From NCBI GenBank assembly GCA_028708035.1, contig JAQVZU010000003.1, forward strand, positions 1 to 58,639: a stretch of DNA of 58,639 nucleotides, written 5' to 3'. Positions within the stretch are counted from its first letter, which is position 1, and every line of letters starts with the position of its first letter. Of the stretch, positions 20,361-27,744 are shown one piece after another. This DNA comes from Alphaproteobacteria bacterium. Its GTDB lineage: Bacteria; Pseudomonadota; Alphaproteobacteria; UBA9219. A program made the position numbers and the translations under genes. Below the pieces are notes generated by a model. That model searched no databases. It was not told the origin of the DNA and worked only from the letters and a program-made list of their open reading frames with translations.

Positions 20361-20454
20361 GGAGACGTGGCCGAGTGGCTGAAGGCGGCGGTTTGCTAAA
20401 CCGCTATACGGGTGAAAACCTGTATCGAGGGTTCGAATCCCTCCGTCTCCGCCA
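20361..20454 (+). tRNA. tRNA-Ser(GCT), CCA encoded
   Basis: GGAGACG...CGTCTCC acceptor stem, GCGGT-TTGCTAA-ACCGC anticodon arm, long variable arm, GTTCGAATC T-loop, GCCA end. Confidence 0.98.
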
Positions 20455-20728: not shown

Positions 20729-21046
20729 TCAGTTTGCTCGATACAAACCGAAGAAAACCGCATCTAAATCAAGGTCATTCCACGCCATCGCCTCGGCCTG
20801 CTCCGAGGTCGTGCTGGCGTTCGTCATCAAGGCCGCGCGTTCATTCCATTCGACCATGCAGCGCATGATGCGCTCGTGCTCGTCTCTCAACAGGGCGTCA
20901 AGGATGGCGGGCTTCTGCGGGCGAAGAACGGGAAGCCAGCGCTCGACAACCTCCGGCTTGCCCGCAACCTTCAATCCCTCCGGCGCTGCGATCCGGAAGA
21001 CGACGCCATCGGCCTGCGCCTGCTTTATGACTTCTTCAATGTTCAT
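20729..21046 (-). CDS. small phage/satellite-type protein (TubC N-terminal-like fold plus EWNERAA motif)
   Basis: MNIEEVIKQAQADGVVFRI..GLKVAG..VLRPQKPAILDALL..WNERAA, a pattern seen in genes flanking satellite primase/rep genes. Confidence 0.55.
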   Translation of the reverse strand: MNIEEVIKQAQADGVVFRIAAPEGLKVAGKPEVVERWLPVLRPQKPAILDALLRDEHERIMRCMVEWNERAALMTNASTTSEQAEAMAWNDLDLDAVFFGLYRAN

Positions 21047-21087: not shown

Positions 21088-21213
21088 ATCCGCAACAGCG
21101 CAACAAGCATTGTCTTGCAAAGGGTTAGGTGTTGCGGATTGGGTTTTGTATCCGCAACAGAAGAAGCCATTGGCGGCGTTGAACTTTTATTCATTTGTTG
21201 CGGTGTTGCGGAT
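21088..21213. repeat. iteron cluster, probable replication origin of the satellite-like element
   Basis: Six copies of (AT)CCGCAACA: forward 21088, 21098 (variant), 21150; reverse 21130, 21196, 21204. Confidence 0.7.
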
Positions 21214-21889
21214 TGGAGGGGGGATTGCTGGAAGACATAAGGTAGCGGGCAAAGACATCATCGAAATCAGTCCGCAAGAATCCTTTTGGCGTCGCCATCC
21301 CAATGCGAATCGTGCTCGTCTTTAGTCCATACTCGCCAAGGCGCTTAGCAAGCTGGCGTGGAGACATTGGCTTGCTCCTGTTGTACGTCGCCCATGGACC
21401 GAGTTCATCTTCATTAAGCTCCCGCAATAGATCGGCGGTCGAAATGCGATCCGCGCCACGTTTCTCGAAGACCTCCCGAATGTCGGCAAGCAGTTCCGCC
21501 GAAAGCGAGATTGCATCATCCACCCCGGAGATTTTTAAAGCAGTGTCGCGAGCAAGCTTCGGCCAATCACCTCCGGCTGCATCCGCAATCGCAAGAAGAG
21601 GCTCCCAATTATCCTGCGCCCGGTCGTTAAGAGCTTCCGGCAAAGAAGGACGCGCACACCTCACCTTTTGGCCATTGTCCCCTGCCCACCGCGCAAGCTT
21701 CGACGAAAGGTCTCTAAATAAACCCACCTCTGCATGGCGTAGCCTTTCAACTCTTTCATCCGGAAGCTTGCGGCGAAGCTCCAAAGGTATGCCCCGATCC
21801 ATTAATGTATCCGGCAATTTGCCGATGCCACAAAGGGCTTTGGCTGCCCATGTGCTGAATGATCCACAACGCCGAGTGGGTAGTAAAGC
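21191..21889 (-). pseudogene. 5'-truncated DUF3631-like replication protein
   Basis: FSTWAAKALCGIGKLPDTLMDRGIPLELRRK, DRAQDNWEPLLAIAD, ELLADIREVF, PWATYNRSKP..RQLAKRLGEYG; in-frame stop at 21890-21892 and no N-terminal half. Confidence 0.7.
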
Positions 21890-21974: not shown

Positions 21975-22800
21975 TAGACCGACGCCCATCCAACACTATT
22001 GGCCCATCTCAATCAATTTGAAAGGATTTAATGATTCGCTCTTGTCGTAGAGTTAACGATGGAGGAAAGCATGACAATCAAAGTTCCGACAGTAAAGAAG
22101 TATATCGTCAGACTGAGCAAGGAGGAACGAAAAGAGCTTAACGAGCTCATACGGAAAGGGAAAAGTCAGGCGAAACAGCAATTGAAAGCGCGCATTTTGT
22201 TGAAAGCCGATGTGTCGAAGCAGGGCGAGGGCTGGAGCGACAGCAAAATTATTAAAGCCCTTAACACCAGCGCATCGATGGTCTATCGGGTGAGACAACA
22301 GCTTGTGGAAGAAGGTATTGAAGCAGTTCTCAGCCGAAAGCAACGCGCAACACCGGCCATTCCGCAGATTTTTGACGGCGAGAAAGAAGCTCGTTTGATA
22401 CAACTGGCCTGTTCTGAAGCACCTGCGGGACAAGCCCGCTGGACGTTGAACTTGCTGGCGAACAAAGTTGTGGCCTTAAAAATCGTCGATACTGCAAGTC
22501 CCAGTACGGTGGGGCGCGTTCTAAAAAAACACGCTCAAGCCCCACCTCAAACAGCAGTGGGTCATCCCGCCGGAGCAAAACAGCGCATTTGTAGCGGCGA
22601 TGGAAGATGTGCTGGCAATTTACATGCGTCCGCACGATCCTGATTGTCCACTGGTTTGTCTCGATGAAGCTACGAAGCAACTCATCAAGGAAACGCGCGT
22701 TCCGATCCCGATGAAGAAGGGCCGGGTCCGACGCGTCGATTATGAATATGAACGCAACGGAACCGCCAATATGTTCATGATGTTCGCACCGCTCGAAGGC
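21975..22800 (+). mobile_element. IS630-family element, 3'-truncated (orfA from 22059; orfB via -1 frameshift)
   Basis: KKYIVRLSKEER..KARILLKAD..LACSEAPAGQARWTL; A7C at 22523-22530; -1 frame gives PLVCLDEA..VDYEYERNGTAN; only the first D of DDE is present. Left end is a guess (TA at 21975). Confidence 0.9.
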
Positions 22801-23030
22801 TGCGGTTTGACGCCGTTTTCTAATCAGCTAAAATTTAGTGACATTCGTTTCTCCAGCACTTGTGTTGCGGTTTGACGCCGTTTTCTAATCAGCTAAAATG
22901 GTGGATCCTTCCTTGGCAATCTTGTATAGTTGCGGTTTGACGCCGTTTTCTAATCAGCTAAAATTGACCTGGACGCGCTTGCTGACCAAGCTTAGTTGCG
23001 GTTTGACGCCGTTTTCTAATCAGCTAAAAT
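22799..23030 (+). CRISPR. type II-C CRISPR array: 4 repeats (36 nt) and 3 spacers (29, 29, 30 nt)
   Basis: GTTGCGGTTTGACGCCGTTTTCTAATCAGCTAAAAT at 22864, 22929 and 22995; variant GCTGCGG.. at 22799. + orientation inferred from tracrRNA complementarity and the downstream terminator. Confidence 0.98.
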
Positions 23031-23037
23031 ACAAATT

Positions 23038-23077
23038 GAATAAGCCCATGGAAACATGGGCTTATTCTTTGTTTTTG
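23038..23077 (+). terminator. terminator between array and cas2
   Basis: GAATAAGCCCATG-GAAA-CATGGGCTTATTC perfect 13-bp stem followed by TTTGTTTTTG. Confidence 0.8.
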
Positions 23078-23101: not shown

Positions 23102-23443
23102 TCATAATAAGACCAGTTGATCAGGATTTTCTGTGGGCGGCTGAGTCGCTCGATTCTGAATGTTGATAATATCAGAGAACTGCTTGTCCGTGAAAAAGAG
23201 GATGCTGATTCGACCACCGGAAGGGGCATTCTTTTTGATCGCCTTCACATAAGTCGAAGCATTGCTTCGTTCTCCGCAAAAACGAAAATACACTGAGAAC
23301 TGCGACATCTCAAACCCTTGGTCCAGCAGAAAATTTCTGAACTTGGTTGCTGTCCTTCGTTCAGCGGCGGTCATAACAGGCAAGTCAAACATCACCATCA
23401 TCCACATCAGGCGTAACCCGCTGTAAGGGACTAGGGGGGACAT
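23102..23443 (-). CDS. cas2: CRISPR-associated endonuclease Cas2
   Basis: MWMMVMFDLPV..TKFRNFLLDQGFEMSQFSVY..ILFFTDKQF; start 23443 (or 23407). Confidence 0.96.
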   Translation of the reverse strand: MSPLVPYSGLRLMWMMVMFDLPVMTAAERRTATKFRNFLLDQGFEMSQFSVYFRFCGERSNASTYVKAIKKNAPSGGRISILFFTDKQFSDIINIQNRATQPPTENPDQLVLL

Positions 23444-23444
23444 T

Positions 23445-24353
23445 TCACGAAGCTTCAAGCCAAAGAGGCAACGCCGGTTGGGGAAACAGCAGGAGATCAG
23501 CCTTTCCCAAATACACAAAGGCAAGACTTGTGGCTGAATCCTGTACCGAATTTGAAAGGGATGTCATTTCGGCTTCCGCTGCAATTTGCATGTCCAAGAT
23601 GCTGGCGAGCTTTCGCTTAACCTCTGTTGAGACCTCAATCTGTTGTTTTTGGACTAGATTCCATACTGTCCAATCGACAAAAGGGCGAAACGGTTCCATT
23701 AAGTCGTCGACCAACCGCATAGGGTTGTTCGAATTTAAATGATGAATGCCAATCGACGGATGAAGTCCGGCCCCCATAATTGCCCGCGCGACACAGGACC
23801 TCAAAACCGTATAGCCGTAATTCAGCATGCCATTGATGCCGCCAGCCTGCCTGTCGCGGCGAAAATCTTTCCCAAAAAGCAAAGGCCAGTATCTTCGCGC
23901 GGCCTGAGCTTCGATATTGTCAGGATCGCCAGAACGAACGGCCTTTTCCAAAGAGCGAACGGGAGTTGGATTCGCTCCTGTCGCCTCTAAGACCACAGCT
24001 TGCTGGGAAATTTTAGATTGTACGATCTGTTTCCATAGTTGTTTGCTTTTGGGCAGCGTTGCGGAAATCTGGGCATCCATGCGGGCCGATTGCTTATAAT
24101 TCCCATCAAGCGACCATAAGTATGCTACAGGCGTGAAGTTTGCGCCACAGACAACAAAAGGGACATTTCGTTGGGCGAGCTGGACAAGCAAGTTATTGCT
24201 GTACGTCAGGCCATGAGCACGGGCAATGACCGCGCCTATGTCATCCAGAGGTACTTTTGTAACCTCTTCTCCTTTTTCGCTTACGCTCATGAACCCGCGA
24301 TTTACGGAAAGATGCTTTCCGTCGGTCGTAATTTCGATGATGCGTGAAAGCAT
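23445..24353 (-). CDS. cas1: type II Cas1
   Basis: DNIEAQAARRYW, LNYGYTVLRS, GIHH, LVDDLMEPFRPFVD. Confidence 0.97.
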   Translation of the reverse strand: MLSRIIEITTDGKHLSVNRGFMSVSEKGEEVTKVPLDDIGAVIARAHGLTYSNNLLVQLAQRNVPFVVCGANFTPVAYLWSLDGNYKQSARMDAQISATLPKSKQLWKQIVQSKISQQAVVLEATGANPTPVRSLEKAVRSGDPDNIEAQAARRYWPLLFGKDFRRDRQAGGINGMLNYGYTVLRSCVARAIMGAGLHPSIGIHHLNSNNPMRLVDDLMEPFRPFVDWTVWNLVQKQQIEVSTEVKRKLASILDMQIAAEAEMTSLSNSVQDSATSLAFVYLGKADLLLFPQPALPLWLEAS

Positions 24354-24354
24354 T

Positions 24355-27300
24355 TCATCTCCTTGAGACGACTCCTAATGGGTCACGAACGCGCCCAATC
24401 ACATCCACAGAAATCTTTCTTAGCTTTGCTTCTTGCATTCCGGAAGGGACTGCACGCCAACTGAGTTTGTCCCCTTCTTCCTTTGCGATGGTATGAGGTC
24501 GAAAGCTGATTCTTCCGCCGGATTCTTTCGCGATTTTCTTCACCCGACAGACAACTGTTTTTCCATCCTTCTCGTAGGCAACCATGTCATCAATTTGGAG
24601 TCGCATAACAAGCTTTGCCGTCGGATTCTCTATTTTCCACTTTGGCTGAAAACCTTTTTGATGTGCGTCAAAATTCGATATGACTTCGCACTGCCATTTC
24701 CCGGCCCGCTTTCCCTTGTTGGGGCAATATATTTCCGCAGAGTAATTACCCCCTGTTGCATAAAATTTGTAAGGATTGTGAGGCTGGCTGTGGGAGGAAA
24801 TGCCTACAAGGGTATCCTTCTGCCGTGCAAAGTGTATGCGAACCCGGCGCGTCCCACTCCGTTCAATGAAAGAAGAAAGAGCTTGTTTCCATTCTTTGCT
24901 CTTTTCTTCGAACCCGTTTACAGCATCCAAAATTTGGTCCCTAATCACGGGGTCGGCAATTTCTCCAATGTTTTTCCGGGTCAGCATATCTTCAACCGCG
25001 ACACGTGTAGCAACTAGAATCTCGTTCTTTCCTTCTCCATCGGCAATGAAGCCAAGAGCTGTTTGGTCAAGCAATGCGGCAACGGTGTAGGGGATAGGGG
25101 CATGAATGGCTTTTTGAGCATCTCCATGGTCAGGTTTGAAAGAAATGATTGTATTTTCCAGTAAGGCCCGGATTTTTTCGCGGAAGCCTGGAAAAGGCGC
25201 ATCAACTTTGTCGATCAGTTTTCTCCGTTTTTCCCAAAGCCCTTCCGTCGTTTCCATGCGGTGAGCTGCTTTCGCCATCTGATTCAGAAGTCCTTGGTCG
25301 GACAGGCCTATCACGAAGGCGTCTATGGCATGATGCCTATGATCTGTGCGGTCTTTCTTGCCGTCTTCGTCACCGAGAAGATCATTAAGTCCGAGTTTAT
25401 CACGCAGCAAAGCGGTCAGTTGTCCCGTGGAGGCCCGCACCTTTTGCTTGCCTTTTTCGTTCTCAAAAACAGCAGCGAGATACTCTTTCGCTAATTTGGA
25501 CATGTAGCGCGTATCGTTAAGCAGACGGGAAATTACGCCATCTTTCCCATCGGCTATCGCCCAAGCGTCTTCTTTGAACCGCCATTGTTTGTTGCTTGGC
25601 AGGTTGTGGGCGCGCGCAAGAATTTCAGGCCAGAATGGTTCGTGTCCAAATGCTTCAAACGGAGAACGGTTTCCCTTTCTCCTGTTCCAGTCAATGTGCG
25701 ACAGAACTTTATTGGCTCGCTTGTCGTTAAAACTGCGCGAGAAGGGCAGGAGGTGTTCCTCCTCAAACTTTCCTGAAAAAATATCTGCGGCTGAAATCTG
25801 GATTCCGCTAAATGGGCAGCACCGCTTTTCTGGCTGCTTCGCCAAATCCTCCCACAGCTTAAACAGCATCCTGTTGCGATACGAGAGAGAAACCCCCAAC
25901 TTTTCTAACTCACCATTAATCCGCTTGTTTTCTCGCGTGTTATCGGCCTGTTGTTTGTTGATTTCATCGACGGGTTCTTTCAATTCTCTGGCAAGTTCGA
26001 TAACGACTTCATCTGGTTTGCCATAGGTTATTATGATCTCGTTCACTAACCGGCGAACCTGGTTTAAAGCAATGTGGACGGATGGGTTATTTATTTTACC
26101 GTAAAACTTTTCGGGATATTGCTTGTCTCCGTCATCGTGAGTTCCACCGATTACACTGCTTTCCAATACTTCCCCATAATAGGGAAGTGCGTCAAAGACT
26201 ACGCCAGTTCGAAAATCGGAGTGATGATAGCCCGCTTTCCTTGCCGCTTCTGCGTATCTGTCCCCAGCTTCCAAAAAAGGAAGCATTTTCATTATAGCCT
26301 TCTTGCTCAACCGTCCATATCCATCAGGAAGTTTGAGATCGGAAATGTTTTCAGCGCATTCTTGGTTAAGGCCATATTCGGCAATCAATTTTTGAACCAA
26401 AACTTGTGAATTCGGTTCCTCAAATAATTCAAAAATAATGGCTTCCTGTTGATCTTGTGTGAAAGAACGCCATCTTTTTCCGAAAGCTTTCTCATCGGAC
26501 AGTAGGTATGAAGTCTCGTCACCGCCTAAATCGGTTCTTTTGTCGGATTCCAGATTGAATTTTACATCTTGGCCTAAGCGCAAAAGGGTTCTGATTTGGC
26601 GAAAGGTTCTTTTTTTATTTGCCATTAAAGCTTGGATTATCTTCTTTCGATCTTCCGGGGTGATATTTCTGTCGGAATCCCCATAATTATCGATTTCGAG
26701 ATTGTTGACCTCCTGAAGAATTCTGAATTTTTGTACTATTGGCAATGCAAGCCTTGCTCTTGGTTCCGAGTTCTCAAAGAGGCATTTCCCGACTTCTTGC
26801 GGCTTGAGGAGTCGCTGGGAAAAAACGATCTCTTTAATTCTTGCACAGACTCTATCAATAAGCTCTGGGTGAAACCGCTTTTGCGAGTTCAATATTTTAT
26901 CTACCTCTGCCTCATACATTTCTCGGCCAGTATAGAAATTATAAGAGGCTTCCTTTCCAACAACGCTTCTCCGCACGCGAACCGGGGCGTATTTGTTTTC
27001 TTTCCTCAACTTCCAAAAATATTCGCCCAACGTGCGGCTCGTTGTTGTCAGTAACTTCGCGTCCAAGTCTTTTATTGCCGTCTTTAACGGGCCAAGGTCA
27101 TTTTCGCGCTTGTCTGCCTTGCGGTTACTTTTAAATCCCCGGCGCTGGTTTATGTGGAAGAGGACTCGACCCAAGTGGTGCAGCGGAATCTCTTTATCCA
27201 AGGCGTCGGCCCGTAGCTCGTAGGGGTCAAGTCCCTCAAGTTGTTTGCGGGCCTTGGGGTCTGAAGGAAACAGGCCTTGCTTCGTTAAGTAATCCAGAAG

Positions 27301-27516
27301 AAGTTCTCTGCGCCACTTGCGTCTATCCAGGTTTCTTCTTGCGCCTCTGGCATTTCTTCTGGATACCGCTAGCGGTTCCTTTGTCTTTCCGTCCCTTCCA
27401 TCTGAAAATATGCGGACGCCCAAAGCCGTAATATCCACCACGGTTTCTTTTTCAATTTTAAGCAGGCACCAACCCAAAGATGTAGAGCCGAGATCGAGCG
27501 AAAGACGAAAGGACAC
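24355..27516 (-). CDS. cas9: type II-C Cas9, ~1053 aa
   Basis: GTG start at 27516 after a GAGGT SD; RuvC-I SLDLGSTSLGW, Arg-rich bridge helix, RuvC-II VIELARE, HNH EEHLLPFSRSFNDKRANKVL..N, RuvC-III HHAIDA; no csn2 or cas4. Confidence 0.98.
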   Translation of the reverse strand: MSFRLSLDLGSTSLGWCLLKIEKETVVDITALGVRIFSDGRDGKTKEPLAVSRRNARGARRNLDRRKWRRELLLDYLTKQGLFPSDPKARKQLEGLDPYELRADALDKEIPLHHLGRVLFHINQRRGFKSNRKADKRENDLGPLKTAIKDLDAKLLTTTSRTLGEYFWKLRKENKYAPVRVRRSVVGKEASYNFYTGREMYEAEVDKILNSQKRFHPELIDRVCARIKEIVFSQRLLKPQEVGKCLFENSEPRARLALPIVQKFRILQEVNNLEIDNYGDSDRNITPEDRKKIIQALMANKKRTFRQIRTLLRLGQDVKFNLESDKRTDLGGDETSYLLSDEKAFGKRWRSFTQDQQEAIIFELFEEPNSQVLVQKLIAEYGLNQECAENISDLKLPDGYGRLSKKAIMKMLPFLEAGDRYAEAARKAGYHHSDFRTGVVFDALPYYGEVLESSVIGGTHDDGDKQYPEKFYGKINNPSVHIALNQVRRLVNEIIITYGKPDEVVIELARELKEPVDEINKQQADNTRENKRINGELEKLGVSLSYRNRMLFKLWEDLAKQPEKRCCPFSGIQISAADIFSGKFEEEHLLPFSRSFNDKRANKVLSHIDWNRRKGNRSPFEAFGHEPFWPEILARAHNLPSNKQWRFKEDAWAIADGKDGVISRLLNDTRYMSKLAKEYLAAVFENEKGKQKVRASTGQLTALLRDKLGLNDLLGDEDGKKDRTDHRHHAIDAFVIGLSDQGLLNQMAKAAHRMETTEGLWEKRRKLIDKVDAPFPGFREKIRALLENTIISFKPDHGDAQKAIHAPIPYTVAALLDQTALGFIADGEGKNEILVATRVAVEDMLTRKNIGEIADPVIRDQILDAVNGFEEKSKEWKQALSSFIERSGTRRVRIHFARQKDTLVGISSHSQPHNPYKFYATGGNYSAEIYCPNKGKRAGKWQCEVISNFDAHQKGFQPKWKIENPTAKLVMRLQIDDMVAYEKDGKTVVCRVKKIAKESGGRISFRPHTIAKEEGDKLSWRAVPSGMQEAKLRKISVDVIGRVRDPLGVVSRR

Positions 27517-27543: not shown

Positions 27544-27578
27544 TTGACAAGTGTATGCCAGCAAAAGTAGTGTATCAA
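27544..27578. promoter_or_regulatory. interleaved divergent promoters for tracrRNA (+) and cas9 (-)
   Basis: + strand TTGACA (27544-49)-N18-TAGTGT (27568-73); - strand TTGATA (27573-78)-N17-TACACT (27550-55). Confidence 0.65.
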
Positions 27579-27662
27579 CCGCTGATTAGAAAACGGCGTC
27601 TTTCCGTTAACAAGATGTTGTTCACAAAATGAAACGGCAGGCTCCGGCCTGCCGTTATTTTT
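27579..27662 (+). ncRNA. tracrRNA
   Basis: GCTGATTAGAAAACGGCGTC (27581-27600) is the exact reverse complement of repeat nt 11-30, followed by TTTCCGTTAAC pairing with GTTGCGG, a nexus-like stem and terminator AACGGCAGGC-TCCG-GCCTGCCGTT-ATTTTT. Confidence 0.9.
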
Positions 27663-27744
27663 ATGACGGCATTTTTAATATCACGTCTCTACAAAGAGAA
27701 TTTGCAGCCTTGTGCCAGTGGCTGCGCATTTTGTTCGTGACAAA

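What the first reader, a model, noticed from the sequence alone, without database searches (positions are those of the whole stretch)
22775..22834. Hypothesis: a natural IS-derived guide RNA aimed at IS630 copies
In type II crRNAs the guide lies 5' of the repeat, so repeat 1 is flanked by IS630 sequence (TCATGATGTTCGCACCGCTCGAAG) in the guide position. Read-through from the co-oriented IS, processed with tracrRNA/RNase III, would load Cas9 with a guide against intact IS630 copies while this locus is protected by the repeat. That would be a route to transposon immunity or silencing without Cas1-Cas2 adaptation. The C at repeat position 2 mismatches the tracr lower stem and could attenuate it.
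Basis: inference. Interest (0 to 1): 0.7.

Follow-up and report, generated by a model that had tools for sequence, protein, structure and literature searches.

The report
Dead IS630 fused to CRISPR repeat
A broken IS630 transposase gene is joined by an old deletion to the first repeat of a small Cas9 (type II-C) CRISPR array, so any RNA read from it would be the array's already-described "extraneous crRNA" with a transposon-derived guide; nothing here shows that this RNA is made or used.

Summary
A 3'-truncated IS630-family element (21999-22800, +) abuts the first of four 36-nt repeats (22799-23030, +). These lie beside cas2-cas1-cas9 (-) and a + strand tracrRNA (about 27580-27664).

Three points change the reading:
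- **The C at repeat position 2 is not a repeat mutation.** It is the transposase's own base (Gly codon GGC of the conserved LEGW motif). Intact relatives continue GAAG|GCTGGCGG and the repeat starts GTTGCGG. The join is therefore a microhomology deletion scar, crossing over in TG 22801-22802.
- **Each repeat carries its own sigma-70 promoter** (TTGACG-16-TAAAAT), as in Neisseria and Campylobacter II-C arrays. Normal crRNAs start inside spacers. The IS-side "guide" has no such promoter, and no promoter-like site was found on the + strand for 2.4 kb upstream.
- **The proposed RNA is the known extraneous crRNA (ecrRNA)** of II-C arrays.

No RNA data exist and the PAM could not be determined. No second near-identical IS copy is in the contig or the source metagenome. 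Matching protospacers do exist in IS630 relatives of other Alphaproteobacteria. Most likely this is an inert scar; a functional anti-IS guide remains possible but unsupported.

The parts
20361..20454 (+). tRNA-Ser(GCT), followed up to 21998 by a remnant of an integrated mobile element. The remnant holds ORF 20729-21046 (-), five TGTTGCGGAT iteron-like motifs at 21088-21214, and a DUF3631 primase C-terminal fragment at 21191-21817 (-).
   Evidence: ARAGORN, Rfam, Pfam DUF3631 at 3e-51. The upstream frame is full of stops.
21999..22800 (+). 3'-truncated IS630-family element. The left end follows a CTA. The transposase ATG is at 22071 and the frameshift A-run at 22516-22522. Coding ends in the Gly codon GGC at 22798-22800. 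About 140 C-terminal residues are missing, including the second D and the E of the DDE triad, and so is the right inverted repeat.
   Evidence: tblastn aa 8-243 of about 382. Pfam HTH_32 plus DDE_3 positions 1-44 of 146. Left-end alignment with L002, L012, L015 and L084.
22775..22798 (+). The 24 nt in the guide position of the would-be extraneous crRNA. It encodes part of the conserved FMMFAPLEG motif.
   Evidence: The exact 24-mer occurs in intact IS630 relatives L001 and L002. It has one mismatch (position 11 from the 3' end) in 10 further loci.
22799..22802 (+). Deletion junction GCTG. G22799 and C22800 belong to the IS (codon GGC). TG 22801-22802 is shared by both parents. From C22803 onward the sequence is repeat only.
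   Evidence: In most of the 73 IS630 relatives aligned, the flank is GCTGGCGG. X3 metagenome contigs match up to 22802 and then continue GCGCCACGTC. The other repeats start GTTGCGG.
22799..22834 (+). Repeat 1, the extra and oldest repeat. It keeps the promoter TTGACG (22807-22812), 16 nt, TAAAAT (22829-22834), which would drive the spacer-1 crRNA.
22835..23030 (+). Spacers 1-3 (29, 29 and 30 nt) and repeats 2-4. Each repeat has the same embedded promoter.
23038..23067 (.). 13-bp hairpin with T-runs on both strands. It would terminate the array (+) and cas2 (-).
23102..23404 (-). cas2
   Evidence: Pfam CRISPR_Cas2 at 1e-15.
23445..24353 (-). cas1
   Evidence: Pfam Cas_Cas1 at 8e-33.
24355..27516 (-). 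cas9, 1053 aa, type II-C size, with a GTG start. The RuvC Asp (LDLGSTS), HNH His (EEEHLLPFS) and HHAIDA motifs are all present.
   Evidence: Pfam HNH_4, RuvC_III and Cas9_a. Identical protein P0001. Best PDB relatives are Nme and Geo-type Cas9.
27580..27664 (+). tracrRNA (ends inferred). The anti-repeat is at 27581-27611, with 20 perfect pairs, a 3-nt internal loop, and the lower stem CCGTTAAC. A conserved terminator hairpin lies at 27633-27656. A possible promoter is TTGACA at 27544-27549.
   Evidence: In L087 and L003 the anti-repeat and terminator change together with the repeat.

Best explanation
The stretch is the upstream, oldest end of a type II-C CRISPR array, fused to the interior of a dead IS630-family transposase gene by one illegitimate deletion.

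An IS630 copy sat upstream of, or within, the array in the same orientation. A deletion then joined the IS sequence ...GAAGGCTG|GCGG to a repeat start GTTG|CGG at a short patch of similarity (G-N-T-G-(G)-C-G-G). It removed four things:
- the IS 3' third;
- the rest of a neighbouring mobile element;
- the array's original upstream flank;
- an unknown number of old spacers.

Repeat 1 still works as what every repeat in this array is, a promoter (TTGACG-16-TAAAAT) for the next spacer's crRNA.

The 24 nt in front of it occupy the guide position of the array's extraneous crRNA (ecrRNA). That RNA can arise only if outside transcription reads into repeat 1. No promoter for this is visible, so it is most likely absent or rare, and the IS-derived guide is an accident without a selected function.

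Shown: the anatomy, the strand, the junction, the embedded promoter sequences, the tracr pairing, and the existence of matching targets in other genomes. Inferred: the order of events, the use of the promoters, and the lack of function.
For: - Array, cas genes and IS fragment.
- The crRNA strand is +. The anti-repeat is followed by a terminator on the + strand. Repeat, anti-repeat and terminator covary across L003 and L087.
- Promoter in each repeat, scoring 10 of 12. It is conserved as TTGACG-16-TATAAT, TAAAAT or TAAACT in relatives.
- No promoter-like or terminator-like site on the + strand between 20300 and 22798, apart from those inside repeats.
- Junction: both intact relatives with the exact 24-mer continue GCTGGCG, and most of 73 IS copies have GCTGGCGG. 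X3 contigs match to 22802 and then diverge.
- In relatives L003 and L087 the first repeat is an unmutated GTTGCGG next to ordinary flanks, a tRNA-Arg gene in L003. The C is therefore specific to this junction.
- The DUF3631 primase gene left of the IS is only a C-terminal fragment, which fits a large deletion.
- The junction sits in an independent contig at single-copy depth.
- Framework: PMC12080349. In II-C the first repeat is the extra and oldest repeat, spacers are added at the other end, repeats hold promoters, and ecrRNA arises only from upstream transcription.
Against: - Nothing positively blocks an ecrRNA here. There is no terminator upstream. Only one lower-stem mismatch is present, costing 2 kcal/mol. 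The seed end of the guide is predicted unpaired.
- Weak promoters cannot be excluded by a consensus scan.
- The guide falls in a conserved part of the transposase gene. Exact or one-mismatch targets with a conserved 3' flank exist in other Alphaproteobacteria.
- The source metagenome shows no near-identical second IS copy. That is also what working immunity would produce.
- That the junction falls within the first 4 nt of a repeat is about a 6% event if breakpoints were random. The microhomology explains it but does not prove it.
Confidence: 0.72

Rival explanations
1. Read-through transcripts from the IS fragment pair with tracrRNA at repeat 1, are cut by RNase III and trimmed. They load Cas9 with a 20-24-nt guide against IS630 relatives. 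This would give exclusion of incoming IS630-bearing DNA, or of re-invasion, without Cas1-Cas2 adaptation.
For: - The geometry is right.
- cas9 looks catalytically intact, and tracr, cas1 and cas2 are present.
- There is no terminator between the IS and repeat 1.
- Exact targets exist in intact IS630 elements of two other genomes, and one-mismatch targets in 10 more loci, all followed by GCTGGCG.
- The locus itself differs from those targets at flank positions 5, 6 and 8-10, so self and non-self could be told apart.
- No near-identical second IS copy is present in the source metagenome.
- One weak hint on the PAM: the only PAM-side flank obtained for a relative's spacer (L003 spacer 5, CGATGGCGAG) shares G at positions 5 and 8 with the IS flank and not with the repeat. 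This is a single datum.
Against: - No promoter-like site upstream, while all real spacers have a dedicated one.
- No RNA data.
- PAM unknown.
- The lower-stem mismatch lies in the Cas9-bound part of the repeat.
- The junction is seen in one sample only.
- ecrRNAs are generally counter-selected by-products (PMC12080349).
- A sense guide pairs with the template strand, which is poor for repression.
- The structure is fully explained as a deletion scar.
Confidence: 0.08
2. The 30 nt before repeat 1 were once a genuine Cas1-Cas2-acquired spacer against IS630. An IS630 copy later inserted upstream in direct orientation. Recombination between spacer and protospacer, possibly provoked by Cas9 self-cleavage, then deleted everything between them. 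The IS now runs seamlessly into the spacer.
For: - This would place the junction exactly at a spacer-repeat border without invoking chance.
- The product removes the PAM side of the target, which is a typical escape from self-targeting.
- The 24-mer's A at position 11 is shared with distant IS relatives (L001, L002, L085) rather than with the closest ones (L012, L015, L084), which could hint at a mosaic.
Against: - It predicts an intact GTTG repeat start, but the C at 22800 is the IS base.
- Single-strand annealing after a Cas9 cut would take the last 3 nt and the repeat from the array copy.
- It needs more events than a microhomology deletion.
- One wobble-position difference is not evidence of a mosaic.
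- No spacer of this or related arrays matches any IS630 locus.
Confidence: 0.1
3. The IS-repeat join is an assembly chimera.
For: CRISPR repeats and IS elements are classic places for misassembly. The spacers themselves are not covered by the Logan contigs.
Against: A separate k-mer contig crosses the join at the same depth as both flanks. Only 2 nt of shared sequence lie at the join, too little for a graph artefact.
Confidence: 0.02

Closest known systems
Extraneous crRNA (ecrRNA) of type II arrays. Feussner et al. 2025, Microlife, PMC12080349, covers II-C. It cites Liao et al. 2019 and 2022 for II-A.
   Same: It is the first repeat in the direction of transcription and has no acquired spacer in front. 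Whatever DNA lies upstream would serve as guide if outside transcription enters. In II-C this repeat is the oldest one and is often altered in its first 15 nt.
   Different: Here the upstream DNA is not an ordinary intergenic flank. It is the coding sequence of a multicopy mobile element, so the would-be guide has real targets in other genomes. The change in the extra repeat comes from the junction, not from drift. No upstream terminator is present.
Neisseria meningitidis and Campylobacter jejuni type II-C arrays with promoters inside each repeat. Dugar et al. 2013 and 2018 are cited in PMC12080349; Zhang et al. 2013 is from my own knowledge.
   Same: The gene set is cas9-cas1-cas2. The array lies after cas2 and is read towards it. 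The repeat starts GTTG and ends in a -10 box. The tracrRNA lies upstream of cas9.
   Different: This repeat carries a recognisable -35 (TTGACG) as well as a -10, rather than an extended -10. The Cas9 is only distantly related, and the nearest relative in the databases is 67% identical.
Natural non-canonical Cas9 guides: scaRNA of Francisella novicida and the long tracrRNA form of Streptococcus pyogenes, which repress own-genome promoters (my own knowledge, not checked here).
   Same: An RNA that was not made from an acquired spacer could direct Cas9 to a fixed sequence.
   Different: Those RNAs are conserved, have their own promoters, use partial complementarity for repression, and are shown experimentally. 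None of this is shown here.
IS insertions and deletions that erode CRISPR-Cas loci, and acquired spacers that match transposases (general knowledge).
   Same: A mobile element is physically associated with an array and part of the array has been lost.
   Different: The IS itself is truncated internally. The deletion is therefore not a transposase-made adjacent deletion. The IS sequence is also not bounded by two repeats as an acquired spacer would be.

Membership tests
Type II-C CRISPR-Cas | cas9, cas1 and cas2 only (no csn2 or cas4), with a compact Cas9 of about 1000-1100 aa | tested here: met
   The ORFs and Pfam hits give cas2, cas1 and a 1053-aa cas9 in a row, with no fourth cas gene between the array and tracr.
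Type II-C CRISPR-Cas | tracrRNA with an anti-repeat complementary to the repeat | tested here: met
   There are 20 perfect pairs plus a lower stem, at -45.5 kcal/mol, followed by a terminator. Compensatory changes appear in L087 and L003.
Type II-C CRISPR-Cas | Array read towards the cas operon from promoters inside the repeats | tested here: inconclusive
   The sequence motifs are present and conserved. Actual transcription starts could not be tested because no RNA runs exist.
Extraneous crRNA (ecrRNA) | Derived from the first repeat in the direction of transcription, which lacks an acquired spacer upstream | tested here: met
   Repeat 1 is first on the crRNA strand. Upstream there is no further repeat within 3 mismatches, only about 780 nt of continuous IS homology.
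Extraneous crRNA (ecrRNA) | The RNA is actually produced and bound by Cas9 | not testable with these tools
   No RNA run holds the locus. The organism is known only from metagenomes.
Extraneous crRNA (ecrRNA) | Suppression features named in PMC12080349: at least 2 changes in the extra repeat, an upstream terminator, or a helix over the guide | tested here: inconclusive
   There is one change only and no terminator-like site upstream. The 5' part of the guide is predicted paired and the seed end unpaired, with mean pairing probability 0.50.
IS630 family insertion sequence | Transposase with an N-terminal HTH and a DDE_3 catalytic domain | tested here: met
   HTH_32 scores 2e-14. DDE_3 is present only for positions 1-44 of 146 because of the truncation. 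The fragment is 71-80% identical to an intact relative over aa 8-243.
IS630 family insertion sequence | Two terminal inverted repeats flanked by a duplicated TA | tested here: not met
   The left end after CTA is present and aligns with relatives. The right end is absent. The element is a fragment, not a complete member.
Acquired CRISPR spacer | A segment of about 30 nt bounded by repeats on both sides | tested here: not met
   There is no repeat upstream of 22799, and IS homology continues upstream without a break.

The most novel reading that the evidence does not exclude
A deletion, not Cas1-Cas2, placed transposon sequence in the guide position of a Cas9 array. Low-level read-through yields an IS-derived extraneous crRNA that makes Cas9 exclude IS630-bearing DNA. 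This would be an adaptation-independent way of capturing a guide, and a beneficial use of an RNA otherwise seen as waste.
Probability: 0.07. Interest if true: 0.7.

Novelty: new member of a known kind. Interest (0 to 1): 0.3.

Why it matters
As it stands, this is a clear example of how CRISPR arrays lose their old end and how mobile elements leave scars there. It also shows that a 'mutated' first repeat can be a junction artefact rather than drift or selection.

If the minority reading were true, it would show that Cas9 guides can be gained by simple rearrangement next to the extra repeat. It would also show that an extraneous crRNA can be useful. Both are directly testable by rebuilding the 6-kb locus in a laboratory host.

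Tried and rejected
**PAM.** Every route failed.
- 21 spacers (3 from the window, 14 from L003, 3 from L004, 1 from L087) were searched.
- 20 of them (not the L087 spacer) gave no match in the phage collection and only a chance 22-nt match in the plasmid collection.
- All 21 gave no match among the fetched loci.
- The three window spacers, and two L003 targets, gave no exact hit in viral contigs.
- Two further patterns gave none in genome contigs.
- The landfill and wastewater contigs held no protospacers.
- Homology is no help. The nearest Cas9 is 67% identical and uncharacterised. PDB relatives match only the N-terminal two thirds.

**Ancestral locus.**
- The exact Cas1 is not on record.
- The exact repeat is absent from metagenome contigs. 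The repeat core gave one unrelated single hit there.

**RNA evidence.** No RNA run holds the locus.

**Junction in other samples.** Only X1 holds it. The wastewater strain X2 has no contig over 22678-23164.

**Rejected ideas.**
- That TGTTGCGGAT motifs at 21088-21214 are decayed repeats. A 10-of-11 match to the repeat start is expected about once by chance in 58 kb, and they look like iterons of the neighbouring primase fragment.
- That the array is read on the - strand. There is no terminator after the - strand anti-repeat, which runs into cas9, and the conserved promoter motifs are on the + strand only.

Full report
**What is there.** The window is a whole 58,639-nt metagenome contig. Positions 22799-23030 hold four 36-nt direct repeats (consensus GTTGCGGTTTGACGCCGTTTTCTAATCAGCTAAAAT) separated by spacers of 29, 29 and 30 nt. 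None is expected by chance. To the right, on the - strand, lie three genes:
- cas2 at 23102-23404;
- cas1 at 23445-24353;
- a 1053-aa cas9 at 24355-27516, with the RuvC, HNH and HHAIDA motifs present.

There is no fourth cas gene, so this is a type II-C layout. A 13-bp hairpin with T-runs on both strands separates the last repeat from cas2.

**Strand and tracrRNA.** Upstream of cas9, the + strand carries an anti-repeat at 27581-27611. It has 20 perfect pairs with the repeat, a 3-nt internal loop, and a lower stem CCGTTAAC. A strong terminator hairpin follows at 27633-27656. On the - strand the same sequence runs straight into cas9 with no terminator.

In two relatives (L003 and L087), changes in the repeat are matched by changes in the anti-repeat, and the terminator stem keeps pairing through double changes.

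**Promoters inside the repeats.** Each repeat contains TTGACG, 16 nt, then TAAAAT, a 10-of-12 match to the sigma-70 consensus. These four sites are the only promoter-like sites on the + strand between 20300 and 23030. The motif is kept in relatives as TTGACG-16-TATAAT (L003), TAAAAT (L004) and TAAACT (L087), while other repeat positions vary.

This is the arrangement described for Neisseria and Campylobacter II-C arrays. Each crRNA starts a few nucleotides into its spacer from the promoter in the preceding repeat. New spacers enter at the cas-proximal end. The first repeat is the oldest and the 'extra' one (PMC12080349).

**The IS fragment.** From 21999 (just after a CTA, aligned with the left ends of intact relatives) to 22800 the + strand is an IS630-family element. 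It has an HTH_32 domain, a frameshift A-run at 22516-22522, and the first 44 of 146 positions of DDE_3. It covers aa 8-243 of a transposase of about 382 aa. The second Asp and the Glu of the catalytic triad are missing, as is the right end, so the element is dead.

It is the only IS630 sequence in the contig. To its left lies the remnant of another mobile element next to a tRNA-Ser gene. That remnant has a primase (DUF3631) C-terminal fragment whose upstream frame is full of stops, and five iteron-like TGTTGCGGAT motifs.

**The junction.** Two intact IS630 elements in other genomes carry the exact 24-mer and continue ...CTCGAAG GCTGGCG.... Of 73 aligned copies from Alphaproteobacteria, most read GCTGGCGG at that place, which encodes the conserved LEGW motif. 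Contigs of IS630 relatives in a sister landfill sample match the window up to 22802 and then continue GCGCCACGTC.

The window reads ...CTCGAAG GCTG CGGTTTGACG, and the other repeats begin GTTG CGGTTTGACG. It follows that:
- G22799 and C22800 are the last two bases of the transposase Gly codon GGC;
- TG 22801-22802 is common to both parents;
- from C22803 on, only the repeat fits.

The 'C at repeat position 2' is therefore IS sequence, and the join is a deletion that crossed over in a patch of similarity (IS GCTGGCGG against repeat GTTG-CGG). In relatives L003 and L087 the first repeat is an unaltered GTTGCGG next to ordinary flanks, a tRNA-Arg gene in L003.

The join is real. A separate k-mer contig from landfill run X1 crosses it at depth 7.6, equal to the cas side at 7.5. 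It runs through the IS left end without branching, so no second near-identical IS copy is present at comparable abundance. At 80% likeness, only diverged IS630 relatives appear in that metagenome.

**What it probably does.** Repeat 1 keeps its promoter and should still drive the spacer-1 crRNA. The 24 nt before it are in the guide position of the array's extraneous crRNA. Such an RNA needs transcription from outside the array.
- The scan found no promoter-like site upstream on the + strand.
- The two ORFs called between the tRNA and the IS (20729-21046 and 21191-21817) point the other way.
- No RNA run holds the locus.

On the other side, nothing blocks it.
- There is no upstream terminator.
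- The C costs only 2 kcal/mol, although it removes the first three pairs of the lower stem in the predicted structure.
- The seed end of the guide is predicted open, while its 5' part pairs with upstream sequence.

In PMC12080349, one change in the extra repeat is below the authors' threshold of two for a suppression feature. A first-position change in C. jejuni made no difference in their assay.

**Could it hit anything?** Not in this contig, where the only match within 3 mismatches is the locus itself. In other genomes it could:
- 2 distinct loci have 0 mismatches;
- 10 have a single mismatch at position 11 from the 3' end;
- the rest have 2-6 mismatches, often in the seed.

The 3' flank in targets (GCTGGCGGCA) differs from the locus's own flank (GCTGCGGTTT) at positions 5, 6 and 8-10. 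Self and non-self discrimination is therefore possible in principle.

Whether the flank is a PAM is unknown, because every attempt to find protospacers failed. The nearest Cas9 is only 67% identical and uncharacterised. One datum exists. Two L003 spacers overlap by 11 nt, which gives CGATGGCGAG as the flank of one protospacer. It shares G5 and G8 with the IS flank, which proves nothing. From established knowledge of CRISPR interference, a guide with the sense of the mRNA pairs with the template strand and blocks transcription poorly. Only cleavage-based exclusion would be plausible.

**Alternatives.** One alternative is that a true IS630-derived spacer recombined with an IS copy inserted upstream. 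That would also put the IS flush against a repeat, but it predicts a GTTG start and needs more events, so I give it 0.1. A chimera is excluded by the independent contig, leaving 0.02. The inert scar with a potential but unselected ecrRNA gets 0.72.

**Comparison and novelty.** The system is a member of type II-C CRISPR-Cas. The RNA in question belongs to the known class of extraneous crRNAs. The element is a fragment of an IS630-family IS. No paper in the library links ecrRNA with transposons. The particular combination appears undescribed, but it is an accident of known processes rather than a new kind of system. Interest is modest. The hypothesis is cheap to test by reconstitution, and the next steps are listed.

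Noticed in passing
window 1-1351 (-): A bacterial 16S rRNA gene, cut at the contig end (Rfam 1420 bits). It could name the organism. Cas9 and IS relatives point to Alphaproteobacteria.
   Followed up: no
window 21088-21214: The 10-nt motif TGTTGCGGAT occurs five times in both orientations, between a 105-aa ORF and the DUF3631 primase fragment. It looks like the iterons of a replication origin. It resembles the CRISPR repeat start (10 of 11), but about one such match is expected by chance in 58 kb.
   Followed up: partly
window 22516-22522: The transposase frameshift A-run is A7 in the window and in landfill run X1, but A8 in a wastewater strain (X2, about 0.5% diverged). A8 gives the -1 register seen in intact relatives, whereas A7 would need a +1 shift.
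   Followed up: partly
window 22864-22895 in run X1: The repeat k-mer contig has depth 42.5 against 7.6 for single-copy flanks, or about 5.6 copies. The window has three repeats with that start. The array may be longer or heterogeneous in the population, or collapsed in the assembly. The spacers are not covered by Logan contigs.
   Followed up: no
L003 7485-7514 and 6957-6986: Spacers 5 and 13 of the related array overlap by 11 nt (GCGTTGTTTGG). They are two acquisitions from the same strand of one target, 19 nt apart. The overlap gives the 3' flank CGATGGCGAG for spacer 5.
   Followed up: partly
L003 7820-7925: In the closest related locus, the array's upstream end lies 30 nt after a co-oriented tRNA-Arg(ACG) gene. 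Its ecrRNA guide position would be tRNA-trailer sequence.
   Followed up: no
window 22600-22875 (+): The truncated transposase reading frame runs on through repeat 1 and spacer 1 and stops in repeat 2, ending ...FAPLEGCGLTPFSNQLKFSDIRFSSTCVAV. If it is translated, ribosomes would cover the ecrRNA region.
   Followed up: no
L002 (CAVUHI010000008.1) and L006: Intact IS630 copies of this alphaproteobacterial subgroup sit in contigs binned as Bathyarchaeota or 'uncultured archaeon' MAGs. This is probably mis-binning or recent transfer.
   Followed up: no
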